Source: an uncultured Pseudomonadota bacterium (GTDB lineage: Bacteria; Babelota; Babeliae; Babelales; CAIQNR01). From it: a stretch of DNA of 64,000 nt. Numbering within the stretch: position 1 is the stretch's first letter; every line of letters begins with the position of its first letter. Positions 22,008 through 64,000 of the stretch are shown here, piece by piece. The notes below the pieces were generated by a model, which worked only from the letters and a program-made list of their open reading frames with translations, was not told the DNA's origin and searched no databases. The stretch spans positions 53,414 through 117,413 of the forward strand of contig CAZMYL010000002.1 of NCBI GenBank assembly GCA_964570505.1, written 5' to 3'. Position numbers and translations under genes: made by a program.

Positions 22008-23060
22008 TTAAAATTCTTCACTTAATTTTTCATCAAGATTTCCATAATCACTTTGCATTAGTTCTATATGAACACCTGACAATTCTGATGCTAAAGTTAT
22101 ATTTTGACCCATTTTACCTATAGCAAGAGACCTTTGGTCGTCATCTAACATAATCTTAGCCGCTAAATTATCATCAGACAACTCAACTCTATTAATCTCT
22201 GCAGGTTTTAAGGAGTTCTTTATTAATAACTCTAAATTATCTGTCCATGCAATAATATCGACTTTTTCATTGCCTAGTTCTTTTAAAATAGGCTTAATTC
22301 TAACGCCACCAACACCAACACAAGTTCCTACAGGGTCAATATTTGTATCATGAGAAATAACAGCTATTTTTGTTTTATAGCCAGGTATTCGAACAATTTT
22401 TTTAATCTCTACCAATCTTTCAAAAACTTCAGGAATCTCTAAGCCAAATAATTTTTCAACAAAAATAGCCGAAGATCTATCAAGAATAAGCTGATTTTCG
22501 TTTTTAGGTTGCTCTAAAACCTCTTTAATTAAAACTCTAATTGGGTGGCCCAAAGGCAATCTTTCACCTGGAACACTTAAAGATTTTGGTAAAAACGCAA
22601 GATGATCTTGAATCTTAATTGTAGCACCACCGCGTTCTATCTTATGTACAACCCCTTGCACAATAGTATTTTCTTTATCTTTAAATGACTTGTAAACAGC
22701 AAGAGCTTCAATTTGTCTAATTTTTTGGGCAATAATTTGCTTTGCTTTTAAAATTTCAATTCGTCCAATTGGTAAAGTAAAAGGAACCCAAAGCTTATCT
22801 CCAGCAGCAATTGTATCGTTTATTGCCTTTGCTTTTCTTAGAGAAATTTCAAATTCATCATCTTCAACTACAGAAACAACGTCTTTTTCTACTTCAATGG
22901 AAAGAGTATCTTTTTTCTTGTCAAATGAAACACGTAAAAAAAGATTTGGATAGCGTTTTTCGTATGCAGCTAACATTCCCTCGCATACAATATCGCTTAA
23001 AATATCTTCTTCTAGGCCTCTTTCTTCTACAAGCGCTTCTATAACTTCTGAGAGTTTCAC
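22008..23060 (-). CDS. nusA: transcription termination/antitermination factor NusA
   Basis: The ORF is 350 aa with an N-terminal domain, an S1 domain and two KH domains (GVCVGVGGVRIKPI; IGKMGQNITLASELSG). The nusA-infB gene order is conserved. Confidence 0.95.
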   Translation of the reverse strand: MKLSEVIEALVEERGLEEDILSDIVCEGMLAAYEKRYPNLFLRVSFDKKKDTLSIEVEKDVVSVVEDDEFEISLRKAKAINDTIAAGDKLWVPFTLPIGRIEILKAKQIIAQKIRQIEALAVYKSFKDKENTIVQGVVHKIERGGATIKIQDHLAFLPKSLSVPGERLPLGHPIRVLIKEVLEQPKNENQLILDRSSAIFVEKLFGLEIPEVFERLVEIKKIVRIPGYKTKIAVISHDTNIDPVGTCVGVGGVRIKPILKELGNEKVDIIAWTDNLELLIKNSLKPAEINRVELSDDNLAAKIMLDDDQRSLAIGKMGQNITLASELSGVHIELMQSDYGNLDEKLSEEF

Positions 23061-23102
23061 TTAAAATTCCTATACATTTGAGGGGTTAGTTTACAATTTT
23101 TG

Positions 23103-23168
23103 AAGACTTTTTCTGATAAAAATAATATCAGATTCAAAAAAAATAAAAAGTCTTGTTTTTTCTTTTTC
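23103..23168 (+). terminator. long hairpin plus T-tract (terminator-like on the plus strand only)
   Basis: The outer stem pairs aagacttttt (23103-23112) with aaaaagtctt (23145-23154). An inner stem pairs ctgata with tatcag. The hairpin is followed by gttttttctttttc. It lies in the nusA upstream region, and no plus-strand gene lies upstream of it. Confidence 0.3.
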
Positions 23169-23208
23169 AACTTTTACATCTCATTTTTGGTCGTTTTATT
23201 ATCTCTCT

Positions 23209-23239
23209 AAATATATATTTATATATAATAATAATATAT
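23209..23239. other. 31-bp A/T-only tract (candidate DNA unwinding element)
   Basis: The tract aaatatatatttatatataataataatatat contains no G or C and abuts the first DnaA box at 23253. Confidence 0.3.
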
Positions 23240-23319
23240 CTTCCGGCTAGACTGTGGATAACTTTTATTAAAAAGCCTTAAAACATGCTTATATAAATGG
23301 TTTTTTTAATTTTTTAACA

Positions 23320-23350
23320 TGTGGATAAGTGGTGGATAAGTGGTGGATAA
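23320..23350 (-). repeat. tandem 11-bp DnaA-box array (3 units)
   Basis: tgtggataagt ggtggataagt ggtggataa. The unit starts are exactly 11 bp apart. Confidence 0.9.
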
Positions 23351-23472
23351 CTTTTACCATAAATGTGGATAACCTTTAAAACATGCCTCTACAGAGCTTT
23401 TTGATGATTTTTATATTTAAAATATCGATCAGCTGAGCGTTTTGAAGCTTTTTTGCTAGATTAAAATTAAAG

Positions 23473-23514
23473 CTATCCACCACTTATCCACCACTTATCC
23501 ACCACTTATCCACA
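23473..23514 (+). repeat. tandem 11-bp DnaA-box array (4 units), inverted relative to 23320-23350
   Basis: ctatccaccac ttatccaccac ttatccaccac ttatccaca. This is the reverse complement of the left array. Confidence 0.9.
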
Positions 23515-23565
23515 ATTTCTATTATAAGAATATTATATTTTTAATAAGCTTTTTATTTTTTGATA

Positions 23566-24153
23566 TTAATTTCTATTTTGATTTTTTGAGAGATCAAATG
23601 CTTTTTTTATGTCATCTAACAATAGGGAGTATTTTTTAAAGTTTCTTAGTATGTATGCTGGATGGTATGCAACAATCACAATTGCATTATGATAACTTAA
23701 TGTTGTTTTTTTAAGCTCTTCAAGTCTTGTTTTTTTAGGTGTAAAAAATTGAGAAGCTGTGCTTCCTAGGGTACAAATTACTTTAGGATTTATAATTTCA
23801 ATTTCTTTAACAAGCAAATGCTTTGTGCATATTAAGCTTTCAGAGGGTGTTGGTGTTTTATTATCTGGAGGTCTACATTTTACAATGTTAGTTATATAAA
23901 AATCATTTTCAGCGATATTTAGTTCTTGAAATATTTTATTAAGAAGTTTTCCAGATCTTCCTACAAAAGGCTCTCCCTTAATGTCTTCTTCCTTTCCAGG
24001 GCCTTCCCCTATAAACATAAGCGAAGCGGTTGGATTTCCTCTGCCAGGAACAATTTGAGTTCTTTCTTTTGAAAGAGGGCATAGTATACAGTTTTTATAA
24101 GATGCATAGAGTTCTTCAAGAAGCTTTTGTTTTATATGTTGTTGTAAAAGCAT
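23566..24153 (-). CDS. uracil-DNA glycosylase, family 4
   Basis: The ORF is 195 aa. It has the motif GEGPGKEEDIKGEPFVGRSGKLL, Cys residues (CILCP ... VKCRPP) consistent with the family-4 Fe-S type, and HPAYILR near the C-terminus. Confidence 0.85.
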   Translation of the reverse strand: MLLQQHIKQKLLEELYASYKNCILCPLSKERTQIVPGRGNPTASLMFIGEGPGKEEDIKGEPFVGRSGKLLNKIFQELNIAENDFYITNIVKCRPPDNKTPTPSESLICTKHLLVKEIEIINPKVICTLGSTASQFFTPKKTRLEELKKTTLSYHNAIVIVAYHPAYILRNFKKYSLLLDDIKKAFDLSKNQNRN

Positions 24154-25690: not shown

Positions 25691-26806
25691 TCAATTATTA
25701 ATGTTTGGATGCAATGTTTTTTCTAAAAGACTGTTCTGGCGTTTGATTTCGTTAATCCATAAAAGAAGAAAAGACAGTAAAAAACTAAGTTGAAAGTCTA
25801 AGCCAAACAGATATAAGGGATTGTAAAATAATAAAAATAAACATGTGATTAGCAAGATATGCAAAGCTCTTATTTTATGTCCAGAAAAAAGCGCACATTT
25901 ATAAAAGATATACATTATTATTGCACGCAAAAAAGAAACACTTGTCCAAGAGAATAGTGTGTAAATAAGTGTAATAAAAAAAATGAATATGTGTTTGTAT
26001 AAAAATGGCAATGGTAAGAAATTTAACATAAAATGCCAAATCCAGATAAAAATGATTAAATGGAGGCCAGATCGAGCAAGATGGTGTGAAATTCCCCACA
26101 ATTTAAAATTATTTTTATAGAGATCAAGTTTTTTTGCAACAGAATTTTTATTACCCATAAAGACTGAAGAAAATAAAGAAAATGTTGCAGCATCCATTTT
26201 CTTACGCAATTTAATTTGTAGCAATTCTCTTTGCCAAAATATCCAATTGCGCCATGATTTTTTAGGATGATTTAATATTTTAAAATCTAATTTTGAGCAA
26301 AAAATAGATGCAGCTACACCTTCTTTGCCAAGATATAATAGTTGTTCATTTGTTGGTTTTTTAATATCAATAGGACCACAAATTATTTCATCATCAACCC
26401 AGCATTTGTTTTTTTCTTTTGTATAAATATAAACAGAAAAATTTGCTTTATGTTTTATGTTTTTATAATAAAAATTTTTTATAAAAAATAATGTTTTATA
26501 AGGTGAAGTATTGTTGCTTGAAAATGTTTTATCAAGAACTGTGCCTTGTAGATAAATATTCTTTAATTCTTTAAAAGGAAGAGGTGATTGTATTGACTGT
26601 TGATATCGTATAATTGCAATTGAAAAAATAAAAAAAATTAAAAAAATAAGCTTATACTTTTTATGATAAATATAATATATGGATATTAAAAACATCAGTA
26701 TTAAAAGCTTATATTCTATGAATTTAGAAAATAATATGCCTGTGATACAACTTATTGTTAATATAAAGGACGTGATTATTGCTTGATTTAATCTTACTAA
26801 TTCCAA
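25691..26806 (-). CDS. ComEC/Rec2-like membrane protein (short form)
   Basis: The ORF is 371 aa with a TTG start and is polytopic. The competence-domain motif is WGISHHLARSGLHLIIF. It lacks the C-terminal metallo-beta-lactamase domain of long ComEC proteins. Confidence 0.6.
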   Translation of the reverse strand: MELVRLNQAIITSFILTISCITGILFSKFIEYKLLILMFLISIYYIYHKKYKLIFLIFFIFSIAIIRYQQSIQSPLPFKELKNIYLQGTVLDKTFSSNNTSPYKTLFFIKNFYYKNIKHKANFSVYIYTKEKNKCWVDDEIICGPIDIKKPTNEQLLYLGKEGVAASIFCSKLDFKILNHPKKSWRNWIFWQRELLQIKLRKKMDAATFSLFSSVFMGNKNSVAKKLDLYKNNFKLWGISHHLARSGLHLIIFIWIWHFMLNFLPLPFLYKHIFIFFITLIYTLFSWTSVSFLRAIIMYIFYKCALFSGHKIRALHILLITCLFLLFYNPLYLFGLDFQLSFLLSFLLLWINEIKRQNSLLEKTLHPNINN

Positions 26807-26909
26807 AATAAAATTTCATTTACGATAAAAATTTAAAAAATTATATATAAATATATAATACATTATATATAAATAATTTTAATTATGTATTTAAATAGAA
26901 CGAGTTTTT

Positions 26910-27673
26910 ATGAATTATAGAACAACTTTTTTAGTTATTTTAAACTTTTCTTTTGTTGTCAATTATGCTTTTAACTCTGAAAGACCCTCCTCTTTTAGTA
27001 AAGAGGAAGAAAAAGAAAGTGAAATTTTAAAAAAAATAAATCAAGAAATAGCTTTTTTTCCAAAAGAAATGCTTTTTTAGATCAAAATAAAAAAAAGCAT
27101 GACTTAGTAGATTGTAGACAAGCTACAGCATGTTCTTCTTGTGTAGAGCATGATAAAAAGAAAAAATTTACTTTAAGTGCTTATGATTATTTAATAAATC
27201 TTTCTAAAATTAATGTGAAAGTTACAGTTGTTAATAAGAATTTATATATTAAGCCTATTTTTCCAGATTGCACTGATGCTTGTCGTGATAGTTTAGACCC
27301 TTATCATATTATTAATATTGGTAGAAACGTTTTGTCAAAGCCTCCAAGGGAGTCTAAGATTCATGAAAAATTTAAAAAATTTTTTTTACAAGCCAGAACA
27401 AATAAAGATAGATTTTTAAGCCAGATTTCCTGCAAAGGAGTAAAATCTTTTATTGAGATGAGCTTTGCAATTGACATGAAAGAAGATTTTGAAGTAAAGT
27501 TTCATCCTGTTAAAGGTCAGTATAGAGATCCAATCAGCAATTATTTTGGTTTGCTCTTATATGAATCATATAAAGATTATGTACAAAAAAATTTCACCCC
27601 GTTTCACGCACTTTTAAGTGTTGCAAATTCTGAACGTAAAAGAACTTTTTCAAAAGCTGACTTAGGAGAATAA
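26910..27673 (+). pseudogene. frameshift-split gene for a secreted protein of unknown function
   Basis: An ATG ORF (26910-27080, signal peptide MNYRTTFLVILNFSFVVNYAF) stops at 27078. The -1 frame is open from 27023 through 27673 and includes the listed 27215-27673 ORF. The two frames overlap at a T7 run (27053-27059). Confidence 0.6.
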
Positions 27674-59008: not shown

Positions 59009-60031
59009 TCATAATATATCAAAATTTAATGAGTTAAATTCTTCTTTTTGTGCTTTATAATGGCCTACAAAAGCAATCATGCCTGCATTGTCAGTGCAAT
59101 ATTGAGGTGATGGAAAGAAAAAAGAAATTTGATATTTATGAGCTACTTCTTGAAGGCGTAATCGAATATATTTGTTGCATGCAACTCCTCCAACAAATGC
59201 TAATGCTTTATATTTATTTGGTTCTAAAGCAAGCGCTTTTTCTATTTTTTGTACAAAAATATCTGCTACGCAAATTAAAAATGAACTAGCCATTTTTTGT
59301 TTAAATTCTAATGAATGATCAAGTAATATTTTATTTTGTAAATCATATGCGCCACGCTTTACAGCATCATATAAAACAGCTGTTTTAAGTCCAGAAAAAC
59401 TAAACATAAGATCATTATTTTTATTTCTTGGATAATTAAAAAAGTCTTTAAAATTAACTTCACTAGCTAGTTTTTCTATAATTGGGCCACCTGGGTATCC
59501 AAGTTGAAGAAGTTTTGCAACTTTATCAAATGCTTCTCCAGCTGCGTCATCAAGGGTAGTTCCTAATGTTTGATATATTCCATAATCTTCTATGTTGTAA
59601 ATGCTGGTATGTCCTCCCGATGCCGTGATGCATAAAAATGGAAATGGTATTTTATTTTCTATGCATGCAGAAAAGGCATGCCCTTCAAGATGATTGATAG
59701 CAATAATTTTTTTATTTAAAGATCCTGCAAGCGCTTTGGCAAAAGCAACTCCTATTAAAAGTGATCCTGGAAGCCCAGGTTTGCTTGTAACTGCAATTGC
59801 ATCTATGTCATTAAGTTGTATGCCAGCTTTATCAAATGCTTCTTGTGTAATTTGATTTATTTTTTTGATATGTTCTCTTGATGCAATTTCCGGAACTACA
59901 CCACCATATTTTTTATGCATTTCAGTCTGAGAAAATAAAGTACTTGAAAGCATGCCATTATCTGTAGTGTAAATTGCAGCAGCTACTTCATCACATGAAG
60001 ATTCAAGGCCAAGAATTGTATATTTTTTCAT
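59009..60031 (-). CDS. tsaD: tRNA N6-adenosine threonylcarbamoyltransferase TsaD
   Basis: The ORF is 340 aa. The motifs are ILGLESSCDEVAAAI, HLEGH, SGGHT and GGVACN. Confidence 0.95.
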   Translation of the reverse strand: MKKYTILGLESSCDEVAAAIYTTDNGMLSSTLFSQTEMHKKYGGVVPEIASREHIKKINQITQEAFDKAGIQLNDIDAIAVTSKPGLPGSLLIGVAFAKALAGSLNKKIIAINHLEGHAFSACIENKIPFPFLCITASGGHTSIYNIEDYGIYQTLGTTLDDAAGEAFDKVAKLLQLGYPGGPIIEKLASEVNFKDFFNYPRNKNNDLMFSFSGLKTAVLYDAVKRGAYDLQNKILLDHSLEFKQKMASSFLICVADIFVQKIEKALALEPNKYKALAFVGGVACNKYIRLRLQEVAHKYQISFFFPSPQYCTDNAGMIAFVGHYKAQKEEFNSLNFDIL

Positions 60032-60759
60032 GATATCCGCGTTTTAAATATTTGATTTTTAGGTGACTGTAGGATAACCCATTCTTCTTTTTTATGGAAT
60101 CCGTCAATATCTAAAGATGCCAACAAAGCAATATTATGAATATATTCAAATAATTCTTTGTCTACATCAACATATATAATTGTTGGTAATAGAATAGAAA
60201 GTCCATTAGTGTTCCAATTTGATTCTTTTTTAACTCCTTTAATAAGGTCAGCGTCTTCTATAATTACTACAGCAGAAGAAGGAATAGTAAATGGGCCAAC
60301 CCCTCTTGTTTCTTTAATATTCCAACAATATTCATTTTTTAATAATGTTTTTTCTGCTTTTAATTGATAATGAAGATAGCTGCTTCCAGCTGGAACTTTA
60401 AGGGTTTCGATAGTATTTTTTTTAGGAGTTTCTACAAGAGCTATAACAATATCAAATGTTGAAAGTGCAGATTCGTAAAAACATGTATAACTACATAAAG
60501 GAGACATGTCATCATCGTAGTTTAAAGAAAGGTTCATAACGCTACCTTTATAATAAATGCGCGGCAGCGAGCATTTTTCTAGAGGAGTATTTTTAAAAGA
60601 TGATGGATATTTTATAAATCCAACATATGAAATTGATTTTTTAATAAGATCATTTTTTTGTGCTATTGGTATAGGCAAATAGTGATTTTGTGCAATAATA
60701 TTTTTATTTAGAGCTCCTAAGGTAATTATTATTATTGGTATATACATTTTTTTTAACAT
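60028..60759 (-). CDS. secreted protein, unknown function, translationally coupled to tsaD
   Basis: The signal peptide MLKKMYIPIIIITLGALNKNIIAQ starts at ATG 60759 after a gggaag RBS. Its stop overlaps the tsaD start (ATGA on the minus strand at 60028-60031). The longer ORF from 60828 is not favoured. Confidence 0.55.
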   Translation of the reverse strand: MLKKMYIPIIIITLGALNKNIIAQNHYLPIPIAQKNDLIKKSISYVGFIKYPSSFKNTPLEKCSLPRIYYKGSVMNLSLNYDDDMSPLCSYTCFYESALSTFDIVIALVETPKKNTIETLKVPAGSSYLHYQLKAEKTLLKNEYCWNIKETRGVGPFTIPSSAVVIIEDADLIKGVKKESNWNTNGLSILLPTIIYVDVDKELFEYIHNIALLASLDIDGFHKKEEWVILQSPKNQIFKTRIS

Positions 60760-60896
60760 AAGACTTCCCTTTTTTAAAAGCTTGTTGTGTTGATTCTGAT
60801 TTGTTAAAATATATTTTATTATCTTCATTTTTAATATTTCAAATCTATAACTTACTCTAAGATTTCTAGAGCAATAAATAAATATTAAGGGGCATT

Positions 60897-61368: not shown

Positions 61369-61824
61369 GTGAAAATAATTAGCAAAAATAAAAAAGCTTT
61401 TCATGATTATGAAATTATAGAAAAAATAGAAGTTGGCCTTGTTTTAAATGGAGATGAGGTAAAATCGCTTAGAGCAGGGCATGTTAATATGACAGGAGCT
61501 TTTGCAACAAATCATAACGGAGAGTTTTTTATGATTAATTGTCATATTTCTCCTTATGAAAAAGCTTATATAAAAACTGACGATAATGCCAAAAGAAGTA
61601 GAAAATTATTGCTTCATAAACGAGAAATTAATCGTCTTGTTGGTGATATTTCATGTAAAGGAATTACATTGATTCCTTTATGTTTATATTTTAATGGTCG
61701 CAATAAAGTTAAGCTTGAACTTGGAGTTTGTAAGCATCGTAATGCTGCTGGTAAAAAGCAGATGCTTAAAGAGCGTGATATTAAGCGTGAAACATCGCGT
61801 GAAATGCGTGGTTATAAATCGTAA
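61369..61824 (+). CDS. smpB: SsrA-binding protein SmpB
   Basis: The ORF is 151 aa with a GTG start. It has KKAFHDYEIIEKIEVGLVLNGDEVKSLR and LLLHKREI, plus a basic C-terminal tail. ssrA follows directly. Confidence 0.93.
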   Translation: MKIISKNKKAFHDYEIIEKIEVGLVLNGDEVKSLRAGHVNMTGAFATNHNGEFFMINCHISPYEKAYIKTDDNAKRSRKLLLHKREINRLVGDISCKGITLIPLCLYFNGRNKVKLELGVCKHRNAAGKKQMLKERDIKRETSREMRGYKS

Positions 61825-61881
61825 TAATTGTAAAAAAATATAAATTCATTTAAATTAAAATAATCAATCTTTGAAATGTTT

Positions 61882-62258
61882 GGGGGCGCACTGGTTTCGA
61901 CGTGCTATTAAAGTTCGTAGAAGCATGCCGAGCTTTTATTGAGTGCTCGTAAAACAAACAGTAAAAACATAAATGCAAACAATGCATTTGCAAACCAAGC
62001 GTTTGCTGCTGCTTAACTTTAATAGTTAAACAGTCTTGTCTGATTGACATGCTCATATGTTAAGAAAGACTCGTATAATAAAAACAATGAGACTACTGCA
62101 GTAGATTATACCCGTTTGTAATGTAGTAGGATACTAACGTGTCTTAAAATATCTTCCCGTTTTCCAGGTAATGTTTTAAGAATTTGTGGAAACTAAGCAT
62201 GTAGGGTCTTCGTTCGGTAATTTTACGGACATGGGTTCGATTCCCATCGCCTCCACCA
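61882..62258 (+). ncRNA. ssrA: tmRNA (SsrA)
   Basis: The 5' end is GGGGGCGCACTGGTTTCGACG. The 3' end is GGACATGGGTTCGATTCCCATCGCCTCCACCA. The acceptor stem GGGGGCG/CGCCTCC contains a G3:U70 pair. A GCATGCCGAG...CTCGTAAAA pseudoknot-1 context is present. The tag reading frame GCA AAC AAT GCA TTT GCA AAC CAA GCG TTT GCT GCT GCT TAA (61975-62016) encodes ANNAFANQAFAAA. Confidence 0.93.
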
Positions 62259-63036
62259 TTCCCATAAGTTTCATTAAAAGATTTTTTTCTAACGAAAATT
62301 TTAATTTATAATCAGGATGCTCTGCGCAAATATCATCTAATATAGTGTCAAATTTTTTATTAAAAAAATTTATATAAATTTTCATAGTTTCTTTAAATTC
62401 TTCTGATAAATGAATTTTTCCGTACATTTTTCTTTCTGGATAATATTTATAGTGTTGTAAGTAAAGATCGTAAGAAGCAGTAGTTGACATTATTTTCTTT
62501 AAAAAAGATTCTTGATCTTCAAGTTTTGTATCCGAATCTTTTTTATACTTTAATAAACATCTTCTTAGATTCATCATCTCAAGAAAAAAATCTGTAAAAT
62601 CATCATCTATAGATCTTTCATTTATTAAATCATCATCATCTGCATTAGCTGGCAAGCTTAAAAATTTCAGGTTTAGAAGTTCTTTTTTGCTAAATAATTC
62701 TGGATAAGGGCACTCTTCCTGTTTGCTTAATTTTGAATATTCCCCTCCAAGATTAGATCTCTCTTCAAAATTAAAATCTGTATCATTTATAGTTGAAGGT
62801 TTAAAAGATTTTCTCATTTGAATTACTAATTTTTCAATAAGAGATTTTCTTCTATCATTGGATTTTGTTTCTTGAGTTCTAAAATCTCTAAAAGGTGCAC
62901 CTCTTAATGATAATGATAGCAATGTGTCTATTTCTTCCAACTTAGTTTGATCGGGGCAGCGACGTTTTGCTTCAAAAGAAGCTTCTTGTGCAAGACAATT
63001 ATGTATTACTAATAAAAATATTACTCTATAAAACAT
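62176..63036 (-). CDS. secreted protein, paralog A of a tandem pair; the 3' end runs into the ssrA gene
   Basis: The ORF is 286 aa with the signal MFYRVIFLLVIHNCLAQE. It shares the blocks KRRC and EERxNLGGEY...PYPELFS with 63040-63954. Its last 83 nt (62176-62258) are the reverse complement of the tmRNA 3' domain. Confidence 0.65.
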   Translation of the reverse strand: MFYRVIFLLVIHNCLAQEASFEAKRRCPDQTKLEEIDTLLSLSLRGAPFRDFRTQETKSNDRRKSLIEKLVIQMRKSFKPSTINDTDFNFEERSNLGGEYSKLSKQEECPYPELFSKKELLNLKFLSLPANADDDDLINERSIDDDFTDFFLEMMNLRRCLLKYKKDSDTKLEDQESFLKKIMSTTASYDLYLQHYKYYPERKMYGKIHLSEEFKETMKIYINFFNKKFDTILDDICAEHPDYKLKFSLEKNLLMKLMGMVEAMGIEPMSVKLPNEDPTCLVSTNS

Positions 63037-63039
63037 TTT

Positions 63040-63954
63040 TTACTTTGGATTAATTAATTTTAATTTCATCATGATTTTTTCTCTATCTACAGCAAAAGTA
63101 AAATTATACTCAGGTACAATTTCTTGAATTTTATTTAATGTGTATTCAAATATTCCTTCAAAGCAATGCATATAATAGTCCATTTTTTTTCTAAATTCAG
63201 GAGATAAGTCTAATTGCTCAACAGATTTAGGCTTGTCTCTAAAGCATTCTAAAAAAATATTATATTCGGTTTTCCAATATGATACTTCTTTTAAAACATC
63301 CTCTTTTTCATTAACTGATATTAATTTTAACCACCTTGTATTATTTGACAATCTCATTAGATTTTCTGTGTAAATAACAAAATCAGCAAAATAATCTTCA
63401 ATAGTTTTTTTATTAGGATTAAGTATCAAATATTCTTCTATGCTTCTTGATTCTTCGAGAAGATCAATAAGATCTTCTTCTGTCATTTTCTTATGAGATT
63501 CAAATTGCAAGCATTCCTTGATTATTTTTGATTCTTTTAAAAAATCAATAAGATTTTCTTCTTGCTCACTAAATAACTCTGGGTAGGGTGTGGCTTCTTC
63601 TTCGGTTAATTCTTGATATTCACCTCCAAGATTAAATCTTTCTTCACGATTTAAAATTCGACGATTTATAGTTAAAATCTTTAAAAATTTTTTGAGGTTA
63701 AATTTTAATATCTCTTCTTTTAATAAGTTGTTAAAAACTGTATCTCTTAAAAAATTTTTTTTTATTAATGTTCGATTTATAGATTCTTCGAGCAGTTCTT
63801 CTTTTTTTGATAATAATTGATTTGTTTGTCTAAATTCTAATTCTGGTTGTTCATATAATAGGGATGAATTTATGCAGCGACGTTTTGGGTTAAAAAAAGT
63901 TTCTTGTGCAAGGCAATTATGTATTGCTAATAAAAATATCACTCTATAAAACAT
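63040..63954 (-). CDS. secreted protein, paralog B of a tandem pair
   Basis: The ORF is 304 aa with the signal MFYRVIFLLAIHNCLAQE. The first 60 nt or so, plus the immediate upstream nucleotides, are nearly identical to those of paralog A. Its stop lies 3 nt before the start of paralog A. Confidence 0.65.
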   Translation of the reverse strand: MFYRVIFLLAIHNCLAQETFFNPKRRCINSSLLYEQPELEFRQTNQLLSKKEELLEESINRTLIKKNFLRDTVFNNLLKEEILKFNLKKFLKILTINRRILNREERFNLGGEYQELTEEEATPYPELFSEQEENLIDFLKESKIIKECLQFESHKKMTEEDLIDLLEESRSIEEYLILNPNKKTIEDYFADFVIYTENLMRLSNNTRWLKLISVNEKEDVLKEVSYWKTEYNIFLECFRDKPKSVEQLDLSPEFRKKMDYYMHCFEGIFEYTLNKIQEIVPEYNFTFAVDREKIMMKLKLINPK

Positions 63955-64000
63955 TTTTTATTTCCTTAAAATTTAATTATTATTTTAATAATATTAGTAA

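What the first reader, a model, noticed from the sequence alone, without database searches (positions are those of the whole stretch)
62176..63954. Tandem secreted paralogs start exactly at the ssrA 3' end, and one ORF reads through into the tmRNA gene: a possible genomic-island junction
Immediately after the tmRNA CCA (62258) the strand polarity flips, and two tandem minus-strand genes encode related signal-peptide proteins. They share MFYRVIFLL(V/A)IHNCLAQE, KRRC and EER(S/F)NLGGEY...PYPELFS. Their first 60 nt or so and the nucleotides just upstream are nearly identical at the DNA level (62977-63039 versus 63895-63957), which suggests recent duplication or gene conversion. Only 3 nt separate the two genes. 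Paralog B ends ...MMKLKLINPK-stop. Paralog A has lost the equivalent stop and continues ...LMKLMGMVEAMGIEPMSVKLPNEDPTCLVSTNS. Of that extension, the final 27 codons plus the stop codon (62176-62258) are the reverse complement of the tmRNA T-arm and acceptor region. Established knowledge: the 3' end of ssrA is a classic integration site for islands and prophages. Inference: 62259 onward is the edge of horizontally acquired or rapidly evolving DNA carrying a secreted-protein family. The other boundary, and any integrase, would lie beyond 64000.
Basis: partly seen in the sequence, partly recalled or inferred. Interest (0 to 1): 0.6.

Follow-up and report, generated by a model that had tools for sequence, protein, structure and literature searches.

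The report
Fast-evolving secreted gene pair beside ssrA
Two neighbouring genes for fast-changing exported proteins of unknown function lie between the tmRNA gene and a conserved ion-pump gene in an uncultured protist-associated (Babeliales) bacterium; this is a small variable slot in the core genome, not an inserted mobile island.

Summary
A tmRNA gene lies at 61882-62258 (+). It is followed by two tandem minus-strand ORFs, A (62176-63036) and B (63040-63954). They are 31% identical (E=1e-33), sit 3 nt apart and share a 90-nt 5' module. A's last 27 codons and its stop are antisense to the tmRNA 3' end.

The island interpretation mostly fails. A conserved P-type ATPase gene starts 208 nt beyond B. 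No integrase and no second copy of the ssrA 3' end were found. GC3 is typical of the window. The closest Babeliales relative (L002) has one A orthologue in the same place, and it also reads into ssrA in the same frame. The run-on is therefore inherited, not a recent stop loss in A.

More distant relatives carry other signal-peptide genes in the same ssrA-ATPase slot (DUF2608, beta-propeller). One, L003, also has a divergent tandem pair of this family.

The family was found in only three genomes. It has no Pfam, NCBIfam or PDB match. Its ORF is kept open by selection (0.1% of neutral simulations stay open) while its protein sequence evolves fast (omega 0.5-1.3, against 0.02-0.15 in conserved neighbouring genes).

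Most likely this is a B-to-A operon of exported host-interaction proteins. Interest is low to moderate.

The parts
61369..61824 (+). smpB, the conserved left flank of the locus
   Evidence: 151-aa ORF. It is 94% identical to SmpB of Candidatus Babeliales MAG DALYEP010000001, and relatives were retrieved with it.
61882..62258 (+). ssrA (tmRNA gene), tag peptide ANNAFANQAFAAA, encoded CCA end at 62256-62258
   Evidence: ARAGORN. Rfam RF00023, 159.3 bits, E=6e-63, full-length model. Aligned with four relatives.
62176..62258 (.). Convergent overlap: the tmRNA 3' end (+) and the last 27 codons plus stop of ORF A (-)
   Evidence: The same overlap, frame and stop position occur in L002. The 5 nt differences between the window and L002 in the overlap change 4 amino acids of the tail (NE to KT, P to A, T to K). 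By my reading of the codons none is synonymous, so the tail shows no protein-level constraint.
62176..63036 (-). Paralogue A (286 aa). It is the downstream gene of the pair. Residues 1-259 (62260-63036) are homologous to the family.
   Evidence: The orthologue P0003 in L002 is 67% identical. The ORF is kept open by selection: only 0.1% of neutral simulations stay open.
63040..63954 (-). Paralogue B (304 aa). It is the upstream gene of the pair, next to the promoter region, and has its own TAA at 63040-63042.
   Evidence: Its upstream region is orthologous to that of the single L002 gene.
62956..63045 (-). Conserved 5' module of A: 9 nt of leader plus the first 27 codons (signal peptide, KRRC)
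   Evidence: the repeat finder family D1, 90% identity over 90 nt.
63874..63963 (-). Conserved 5' module of B
63037..63042 (-). B-A junction: TAA (B stop) + AAA, then the ATG of A. There is no separate Shine-Dalgarno sequence, so the pair is probably co-transcribed and translationally coupled (inferred).
   Evidence: The tandem pair in L003 has the same kind of junction (TAA AAT ATG).
62680..62745 (-). Region of A that encodes the invariant family motif G-E-Y-x(8-11)-P-Y-P-E-[LP]-F-S-x-[KQ]-E (residues 98-119)
   Evidence: Invariant columns in the 5-sequence alignments.
63559..63624 (-). Region of B that encodes the same motif (residues 111-132)
62260..62619 (-). C-terminal domain of A, predicted as a four-helix bundle
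   Evidence: AlphaFold2 on a 3-sequence alignment: mean pLDDT 77.8, pTM 0.70, helices 4-27, 33-59, 73-100 and 103-119. Foldseek against PDB gave no match below E=0.4.
63043..63414 (-). C-terminal helical domain of B
   Evidence: The full-length B model has pLDDT 55-75 only over residues 185-300. Residues 12-184 are below 50.
63955..64000 (.). Start of the 208-nt divergent intergenic (promoter) region shared with the P-type ATPase gene, which begins 208 nt after B, beyond the window
   Evidence: L001 (Logan contig) extends the window by 1.4 kb. The region is about 91% identical to L002. Promoter-like hexamers occur on both strands.

Best explanation
The window comes from a Babeliales (Dependentiae/TM6) genome. 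Between two conserved core genes, smpB-ssrA on one side and a P-type cation ATPase on the other, lies a short slot whose content differs between lineages.

In this genome the slot holds a two-gene unit, B then A. It is probably transcribed from the divergent promoter region shared with the ATPase gene, and A probably starts by translational coupling (TAA-AAA-ATG).

Both genes encode members of a family seen in only three genomes. Each protein has:
- an N-terminal Sec-type signal peptide ending in an invariant Cys;
- a low-confidence, probably disordered, charged segment that carries one invariant linear motif (GEY...PYPE[LP]FS.KE);
- in A, B and the L002 protein, a C-terminal four-helix bundle.

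The proteins are real and kept open by selection, but their sequence changes very fast. This is the pattern expected of exported proteins at a host-parasite interface. That function is inferred, not shown.

A abuts ssrA so tightly that it has no stop of its own, and it reads 27 codons into the antisense of the tmRNA 3' end. This arrangement is inherited from the common ancestor with the sister species. The tail sequence is dictated by tmRNA and shows no protein-level constraint. B has its own stop because the tandem-duplication junction supplies a TAA just upstream of A's ATG.

The locus is not an integrase-borne island. Turnover of the slot is better explained by local duplication, deletion and recombination between conserved flanks.
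For: Organism and synteny:
- SmpB relatives are Babeliales MAGs.
- tmRNA lies directly after smpB in five of them.
- The order smpB-ssrA-[slot]-P-type ATPase holds in the window plus L001, and in L002, L003, L004 and L005.

Slot content:
- window: A and B;
- L002: one A orthologue that reads into ssrA identically;
- L003: DUF2608 plus two tandem divergent family members with a TAA-AAT-ATG junction;
- L004: two DUF2608 genes plus one other;
- L005: two beta-propeller genes plus one other.
All have signal-peptide-like N-termini.

No island signatures:
- no second copy of the ssrA 3' end;
- no integrase;
- GC3 of A is 0.189 and of B 0.174, against a window mean of 0.180 +/- 0.029.

The genes are real: shuffled sequence gives ORFs of at most 134 codons; 0.1% of neutral simulations keep the ORF open; all four indels against L002 are in frame.

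Fast evolution: 67% amino-acid identity, against 87-95% for smpB, DUF2062 and the ATPase. Codon-position differences are 0.19/0.18/0.16. Omega is 0.5-1.3, against 0.02-0.15 for those three genes.

Restricted family: only A, B, P0003 and P0006 were found among 5.8 billion clusters and 1.84 billion representatives. Two metagenome scans found nothing. There is no Pfam or NCBIfam match.

Architecture.

The region upstream of B is orthologous to the region upstream of the L002 gene.

Context: 44% of Chromulinavorax CDS carry signal peptides, and these are enriched in ORFans (PMC6561590). About 21 of 54 window ORFs look similar by a crude rule.
Against: - No expression data exist. The operon structure, translational coupling and export are inferred from sequence only.
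- The signal peptide was judged by eye and by a crude rule, not by SignalP or LipoP.
- The host-interaction function is an inference from lineage biology and evolutionary rate.
- Synonymous divergence of A against L002 is significantly lower than in the flanking genes (20/168 against 321/1124 conserved-residue codons, p=1.4e-6). This model does not explain that. It could mean recent exchange of the slot between lineages, which is a form of horizontal transfer.
- Only 1.4 kb beyond the window was available for this genome itself. The absence of an integrase further downstream rests on the collinear relatives.
Confidence: 0.72

Rival explanations
1. Classic ssrA-targeted genomic island or degraded prophage. 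On this view, 62259 onward is the attL edge of an integrase-mobilised element that carries the secreted-protein genes.
For: ssrA 3' ends are well-documented integration sites, for example the Dehalococcoides vcr islands (PMC3146451, listed). Slot content differs among Babeliales relatives. Synonymous divergence of A against L002 is lower than in the flanks, which is compatible with later exchange.
Against: - No integrase was found in the 1.4 kb beyond the window or in about 9.5 kb downstream of ssrA in L002 and L003.
- No second copy of the last 15-45 nt of ssrA exists, even allowing mismatches.
- The segment is only 1.9 kb and is bounded by a conserved ATPase.
- GC3 equals the genome mean.
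- The orthologue sits at the same place in the nearest relative.
- The family is absent from all other genomes and metagenomes searched.
Confidence: 0.05
2. A is a decaying copy. After it lost its stop it became a non-functional run-on ORF, and only B is functional.
For: A has no stop of its own. Omega against L002 is near 1 by two of four methods. A carries a 20-residue deletion relative to L002 and B. The tail shows no protein-level constraint.
Against: - The run-on form is the only copy in L002 and is intact there.
- Only 0.1% of neutral simulations with the observed 137 substitutions keep the ORF open.
- All four indels are in frame.
- Blocks such as KPSTINDTDFNFEER, PYPELFS and YLQHYKYYPERKMY are conserved.
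- The C-terminal domain folds with pLDDT 78.
Confidence: 0.08
3. The overlap is functional. The 3' end of A's mRNA is complementary to tmRNA, or A's mRNA ends before the stop and becomes a natural non-stop message. Either way, the level of protein A would be coupled to trans-translation activity.
For: The overlap, frame and stop position are conserved between two species whose flanking genes have NG86 dS of about 0.6. No intrinsic terminator was found between the convergent genes. A Rho gene is present in the window.
Against: - The conservation is fully explained by constraint on tmRNA itself.
- The same antisense frame in L003 hits a TAG after 14 codons (my reading of the alignment).
- 27 stop-free codons are not improbable by chance; I estimate about 0.2-0.3, and this was not computed.
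- L003 family members end with their own stops and are separated from ssrA by another gene.
- There are no expression data.
Confidence: 0.07
4. The pair was made by a very recent tandem duplication in this genome, with recent gene conversion keeping the 5' ends alike.
For: L002 has a single copy. The 5' 90 nt are 90% identical while the rest is about 34% identical at protein level. The regions upstream of the B and L002 genes are orthologous, and A keeps the ancestral 3' end.
Against: - A-B and B-L002 divergence outside the 5' module (NG86 dS 0.85-0.92, dN 0.57-0.68) exceeds the species divergence of the flanking genes (dS about 0.6).
- The 5' module is no more alike between A and B (73/81) than between A and L002 (72/81).
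- L003 also has a tandem pair with the same kind of junction.
Together these favour an older duplication with secondary loss of one copy in L002, for example by recombination between the conserved 5' modules.
Confidence: 0.2

Closest known systems
ssrA/tRNA-targeted genomic islands and prophages (tyrosine-integrase elements, e.g. the Dehalococcoides ssrA vcr islands, PMC3146451)
   Same: Variable, lineage-specific genes lie immediately 3' of the tmRNA gene, and the content differs among related genomes.
   Different: There is no integrase, no direct repeat of the ssrA 3' end and no compositional shift. The segment is only 1.9 kb, is bounded by a conserved core gene, and the nearest relative has an orthologue in the same place.
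ORFan signal-peptide proteins of Dependentiae (e.g. Chromulinavorax destructans, in which 44% of CDS have signal peptides and these are enriched in ORFans; PMC6561590)
   Same: Same phylum. The proteins have a Sec-type N-terminus and no database homologues, and are presumed to be exported host-interaction or surface proteins.
   Different: This particular family (GEY...PYPE[LP]FS motif plus a four-helix bundle) has not been described, has no Pfam or NCBIfam model, and is limited to one locus in three related MAGs. It contains no ankyrin or other known effector domain.
Integrase-free 'hot spot' or plasticity slots between conserved core genes, renewed by homologous recombination in the flanks (general concept, from my own knowledge)
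   Same: The flanks (smpB-ssrA and the P-type ATPase) are conserved and the cargo differs between lineages. Synonymous divergence is lower in and around the slot than further out.
   Different: The slot is very small (1-3 genes). All cargo consists of signal-peptide proteins rather than defence or mobile genes. Recombination is only hinted at by a two-genome comparison.
Spurious or extended ORFs annotated antisense to tRNA/tmRNA genes
   Same: The last 27 codons of A are simply the reverse complement of the tmRNA T-arm and acceptor region, and show no protein-level constraint.
   Different: The upstream 259 codons are a real, conserved gene. The extension arises because that gene has no stop before ssrA, and the arrangement is conserved in a second species.

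Membership tests
tmRNA (Rfam RF00023) | A full-length covariance-model match above the gathering score, with a tRNA-like domain, a CCA end and a tag reading frame | tested here: met
   159.3 bits against a gathering score of 47, model positions 1-374 of 374. ARAGORN predicts the tag ANNAFANQAFAAA*.
ssrA-integrated genomic island / prophage | An integrase (tyrosine or serine recombinase) gene at the ssrA-proximal or distal end | tested here: not met
   The ORFs after ssrA are A, B and then the P-type ATPase. In L002 and L003 the roughly 9.5 kb after ssrA hold the ATPase, small secreted ORFs, ATP synthase subunits, HerA-like, SET, OmpH-like, Pth-like and other housekeeping-looking ORFs; the scanned ORFs gave no recombinase domain. 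For the window genome itself only 1.4 kb beyond the window could be read.
ssrA-integrated genomic island / prophage | A direct repeat of the ssrA 3' end (att) at the far boundary | tested here: not met
   The last 15, 20, 30 and 45 nt of ssrA, with up to 1, 3, 5 and 9 mismatches respectively, match only ssrA itself in the window plus L001 and in L002-L005, L007 and L009.
ssrA-integrated genomic island / prophage | Composition or codon usage that deviates from the host genome | tested here: not met
   GC3 is 0.189 for A and 0.174 for B, against 0.180 +/- 0.029 for 54 window ORFs. The low total GC of B (0.254) comes from second codon positions, and other window genes are equally low.
ssrA-integrated genomic island / prophage | Presence/absence polymorphism with an empty site in close relatives | tested here: inconclusive
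   The closest relative, L002, has the A orthologue in place but lacks B. L003 has a divergent pair plus DUF2608. L004 and L005 have unrelated cargo. No empty ssrA-ATPase junction was seen.
Sec-dependent signal-peptide protein | A positively charged n-region, a hydrophobic h-region of 7-15 residues, and a c-region with small residues at -3 and -1 | tested here: inconclusive
   MFYR / VIFLLVI / HNCLA-QE fits by eye and by a crude rule. No SignalP-type predictor was available.
Bacterial lipoprotein (SPase II substrate) | A lipobox [LVI][ASTVI][GAS]C at the end of the h-region | tested here: not met
   The Cys is invariant in all five family members, but the preceding residues (IHN, LHN, INS, LTQ) do not fit the canonical lipobox. 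A non-canonical lipobox cannot be excluded.
Any curated protein family (Pfam-A, NCBIfam) or solved fold | A significant profile or structural match | tested here: not met
   Pfam: none; one chance hit at E=0.03, below the cut-off. NCBIfam: none. Foldseek against PDB: best E=1.5 for the full B model and 0.49 for the C-terminal domain of A.
Tandem paralogous gene pair | Significant pairwise similarity over most of the length, same strand, adjacent | tested here: met
   BLASTP E=1e-33 over residues 1-261 of A and 1-301 of B. The two genes are 3 nt apart on the minus strand.

The most novel reading that the evidence does not exclude
A protein-coding gene that has permanently given up its own stop codon and terminates inside the antisense of the tmRNA gene. 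This arrangement is conserved in two species. Its mRNA 3' end would be complementary to tmRNA, and any transcript that ends before the stop would be a natural non-stop substrate. Abundance of this exported protein would then be coupled to trans-translation activity. In addition, the ssrA-ATPase slot may be exchanged between related Babeliales by homologous recombination: synonymous divergence is about half that of the flanks (p=1.4e-6).
Probability: 0.07. Interest if true: 0.6.

Novelty: new member of a known kind. Interest (0 to 1): 0.25.

Why it matters
The result corrects an attractive but wrong reading. Position next to ssrA, a strand flip and the presence of paralogues do not make an island. 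Synteny with relatives shows a tiny variable slot in a core-genome context.

The locus adds one undescribed, extremely lineage-restricted family of exported proteins to the large pool of ORFan secreted proteins thought to mediate host manipulation in Dependentiae. This family is under unusually fast protein evolution.

The conserved run-on of a real gene into the tmRNA gene is a caution for annotation. It is also a small curiosity that could be tested with transcript 3'-end mapping.

Tried and rejected
- **Homology searches.** Three word-indexed searches of 5.8 billion clusters found only A, B, the L002 protein and one L003 protein. One exhaustive HMMER search of 1.84 billion representatives added two hits, P0004 and P0005. 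These are internally repetitive proteins and were rejected as spurious.
- **Metagenome scans.** Two scans, one with the family alignment and one with A alone, found no relative.
- **Curated families.** Pfam and NCBIfam gave nothing.
- **Terminators.** Neither the terminator scan nor RNA folding found a convincing terminator between ssrA and A.
- **Other RNAs.** An Rfam E-value scan of 61800-64000 found only tmRNA plus a chance 6A hit at E=0.5.
- **ITAM-like reading of the motif.** YxxL-x7-YxxL fits A, B and L002 but not the L003 members (YKIA, YPEP). I rejected it as coincidental.
- **Canonical lipoprotein.** Rejected because the lipobox is not met.
- **Recent gene conversion of the 5' module.** Rejected as unnecessary because the L002 orthologue is equally similar there.
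Full report
**1. Observation**

The tmRNA gene lies at 61882-62258 on the + strand. ARAGORN predicts the tag peptide ANNAFANQAFAAA, and Rfam RF00023 matches at 159 bits over the full model. smpB lies directly upstream at 61369-61824.

Two minus-strand ORFs follow ssrA. A is 62176-63036 (286 aa) and B is 63040-63954 (304 aa), and they are 3 nt apart. They are paralogues: BLASTP gives 31% identity, E=1e-33, over nearly their whole length.

A 90-nt block covers 9 nt of leader plus the first 27 codons. It is 90% identical between the two genes (62956-63045 versus 63874-63963). A 54-nt probe from it matches only these two places, and no shuffle gave a match.

A's final 27 codons and its TAA are the reverse complement of the tmRNA 3' end. 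Of the 84 nt at 62176-62259, 83 nt lie inside ssrA.

**2. The ORFs are real genes**

- The longest ORF in 1000 shuffles of 62259-63954 was 134 codons, against 304 and 286 observed.
- The closest relative carries an intact orthologue of A that differs by 137 substitutions and four indels, all in frame.
- When those 137 substitutions were re-placed at random, only 0.1% of 20,000 simulated descendants kept the ORF open.

**3. Organism and what lies beyond the window**

SmpB retrieves Babeliales (Dependentiae/TM6) MAGs. L002 is 94% identical, L003 87%, L004 77% and L005 74%.

Protein B is found on a 3.2-kb Logan contig, L001, that extends the window by 1.4 kb. After B comes a 208-nt intergenic region and then, on the opposite strand, the N-terminal 417 codons of a P-type cation ATPase. 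Pfam confirms the ATPase on the L002 orthologue. The supposed island is therefore 1.9 kb long and its far boundary lies just outside the window.

**4. Test of the island model**

- The last 15-45 nt of ssrA, with generous mismatches, occur only once in the window plus L001 and in each relative.
- No recombinase is present in the 1.4 kb beyond the window.
- None is present in the roughly 9.5 kb downstream of ssrA in L002 or L003 either. Those regions carry the ATPase, small signal-peptide ORFs, ATP synthase subunits, HerA-like, SET-domain and OmpH-like genes and other housekeeping-looking ORFs.
- GC3 of A (0.189) and B (0.174) equals the window mean of 0.180 +/- 0.029. The low total GC of B comes from second codon positions.
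- The window is otherwise core genome: NusA, UDG, Rho, SecF, TsaD, DUF2062 and SmpB.

**5. What the ssrA flank looks like in relatives**

The order smpB-ssrA-[slot]-P-type ATPase is conserved in L002, L003, L004 and L005, but the slot differs.

| Genome | Slot content |
|---|---|
| window | A and B |
| L002 | one gene, P0003 (307 aa), orthologous to A (67% identity) |
| L003 | a DUF2608 gene plus two tandem minus-strand genes |
| L004 | two DUF2608 genes and a 156-aa ORF |
| L005 | two beta-propeller (Lactonase/YNCE-like) genes and a 193-aa ORF |

- An iterated local HMM recognises the two L003 genes as divergent family members (E=1e-4, rising to 1e-66 after inclusion). They are also 3 nt apart, with a TAA-AAT-ATG junction.
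- Every cargo gene starts with a signal-peptide-like N-terminus.
- L007 has a different ssrA flank without the ATPase.

The ssrA-ATPase interval is thus a small, content-variable slot for exported-protein genes.

**6. The overlap with ssrA**

The L002 orthologue also lacks a stop before ssrA. It reads into the tmRNA antisense in the same frame and ends at the same aligned TAA. The run-on therefore predates the split of the two species, whose flanking genes show NG86 dS of about 0.6. It is not a recent loss in A.

Five nucleotides differ between the two tmRNA 3' regions. They change four amino acids of the tail (NE to KT, P to A, T to K), and by my reading of the codons none is synonymous. The tail thus follows tmRNA and shows no protein-level constraint, although the sample is small.

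In L003 the same antisense frame meets a TAG after 14 codons (read). The open frame is therefore incidental to the tmRNA sequence.

No convincing intrinsic terminator separates the convergent genes. Rho is encoded in the window.

**7. Why B has a stop**

The 120 nt upstream of B are orthologous to the 120 nt upstream of the L002 gene, whereas the sequence upstream of A is B's 3' end. B therefore holds the ancestral promoter side and A the ancestral 3' side of a tandem duplication.

B's last codons and its TAA, followed by AAA-ATG, resemble the leader (TAAAAAATG) found upstream of B and of the L002 gene. This suggests that the junction, not an ancestral stop, terminates B. That is an inference, and the similarity beyond 9 nt is weak in such AT-rich sequence.

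**8. Age of the duplication**

- Outside the 5' module, A-B and B-L002 divergence (NG86 dS 0.85-0.92, dN 0.57-0.68) exceeds the divergence of flanking genes between the two species (dS about 0.6).
- The 5' module is no more alike between A and B (73/81) than between A and L002 (72/81) or B and L002 (69/81).
- L003 also has a tandem pair.

I therefore favour an older duplication with secondary loss of one copy in L002. Recombination between the conserved 5' modules would produce exactly the L002 arrangement.

The L002 gene is mosaic. Aligned codons 26-100 are about equally distant from A and B, and later codons are clearly A-like. The direction of events cannot be settled with three genomes.

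**9. Evolutionary rate**

| Measure (window vs L002) | A | smpB, DUF2062, ATPase |
|---|---|---|
| Amino-acid identity | 67% | 87-95% |
| Differences at codon positions 1/2/3 | 0.19/0.18/0.16 | 0.04-0.11 / 0.03-0.06 / 0.23-0.30 |
| Omega (four methods) | 0.5-1.3 | 0.02-0.15 |

Together with ORF maintenance they indicate very weak average constraint or diversifying selection.

One point is unexplained. Synonymous change in A is significantly lower than in the flanks, including an equally fast-evolving secreted neighbour (hyp266):

- 20 of 168 conserved-residue codons in A, against 321 of 1124 in the flanks (Fisher p=1.4e-6);
- 5 of 32 four-fold sites in A, against 159 of 435 in the flanks (p=0.02).

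The first 70 ATPase codons (0.20) and the intergenic region (9% divergence) are also less diverged than more distant sequence. This may reflect a more recent exchange of the slot between lineages by homologous recombination, or nucleotide-level constraint. I could not resolve which.

**10. What the proteins are**

The family is extremely restricted. Across 5.8 billion clusters and 1.84 billion representatives, only A, B, P0003 (L002) and P0006 (L003) were found. Two repetitive proteins were rejected as spurious. Two JGI metagenome scans found nothing. There is no Pfam or NCBIfam match, and no source gives the proteins a name.

The five sequences share:
- a signal-peptide-like N-terminus with an invariant Cys at the end of the hydrophobic stretch, which does not form a canonical lipobox;
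- one invariant linear motif, G-E-Y-x(8-11)-P-Y-P-E-[LP]-F-S-x-[KQ]-E.

AlphaFold2 gives low confidence for residues 12-184 of B, which carry the motif. It gives a confident four-helix bundle for the C-terminal 120 residues of A (pLDDT 77.8, pTM 0.70). Foldseek against PDB finds only generic helical bundles (E>0.4).

In Dependentiae, 44% of Chromulinavorax CDS carry signal peptides, and these are enriched in ORFans regarded as candidate host-manipulation factors (PMC6561590). About 21 of 54 large ORFs in this window look similar by a crude rule. Being exported is thus ordinary for this lineage.

**11. Conclusion**

The best-supported reading is a B-to-A operon of lineage-restricted, fast-evolving exported proteins, probably acting at the host interface. 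It sits in a small variable slot between ssrA and a conserved ATPase gene. An inherited and probably incidental run-on of A extends into the antisense of ssrA.

It is a new member of a known kind of thing: ORFan secreted paralogues in an obligate host-associated bacterium, in a recombination-prone slot beside a t(m)RNA gene. Interest is low to moderate.

The only unusual residues are the conserved stop-less arrangement against ssrA and the depressed synonymous divergence of the slot.

Noticed in passing
L002 14664-16115 (minus strand), just after the P-type ATPase; the equivalent region lies beyond the window end: Three tandem small ORFs (99, 214 and 158 aa) have near-identical signal-peptide N-termini (M.KKLLL.LSFY.N..FC[SN]E) and no Pfam match. 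This is a second tandem family of exported ORFans next to the same ATPase.
   Followed up: partly
window 62260-63036 versus L002 10893-11732, and flanks: Synonymous divergence of A against its orthologue is about half that of five flanking genes (20/168 against 321/1124 conserved-residue codons, p=1.4e-6). The intergenic region and the first 70 ATPase codons are also less diverged. This may be a recombination tract centred on the slot, or nucleotide-level constraint.
   Followed up: partly
L003 11182-11994; L004 11068-12453; L005 4393-6541: In more distant Babeliales the same ssrA-ATPase slot carries DUF2608 (HAD-like) genes or beta-propeller (Lactonase/YNCE-like) genes. All have signal peptides.
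   Followed up: yes
window ~23000-24000: Cumulative GC skew reaches its minimum here and the sign switches. Nearby genes are NusA, UDG, a C11 peptidase and a ComEC-like competence protein. No dnaA was seen, and an AT-rich gap lies at 26806-27215. This could be a replication landmark or simply reflect gene orientation.
   Followed up: no
window 60028-60828 (minus strand), overlapping the tsaD start by 4 nt: A 266-aa signal-peptide ORF with no Pfam match is only 66% identical to its L002 orthologue. Unlike A, it shows a normal codon-position pattern (0.24/0.16/0.37). It is another fast-evolving exported protein embedded among core genes.
   Followed up: partly
window 62995-62997 and 63913-63915 (Cys14 codons); L002 and L003 homologues: All five family members keep a Cys at the end of the N-terminal hydrophobic stretch (IHNC, LHNC, INSC, LTQC). 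This may be a non-canonical lipobox, or a disulphide partner of Cys27 in the KRRC motif.
   Followed up: no
tmRNA genes: window 61882-62258; L002 10514-10891; L003 10516-10899; L004, L005, L007, L009: Predicted tag peptides vary widely among Babeliales: ANNAFANQAFAAA, ANNVFANQAVAAA, ANALNFNSQPVEYAAFA, GEPVFA and others. The last 30 nt of the gene are identical in all but L007, which has one mismatch.
   Followed up: no
L002 19653-20309: A SET-domain (eukaryote-like histone methyltransferase) protein is encoded about 9 kb downstream of ssrA in the sister genome.
   Followed up: no
window 63743-63799 (minus strand): A weak Rfam hit to 6A RNA (22 bits, E=0.5, gathering score 41) lies inside the B coding region. 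It is almost certainly chance.
   Followed up: yes
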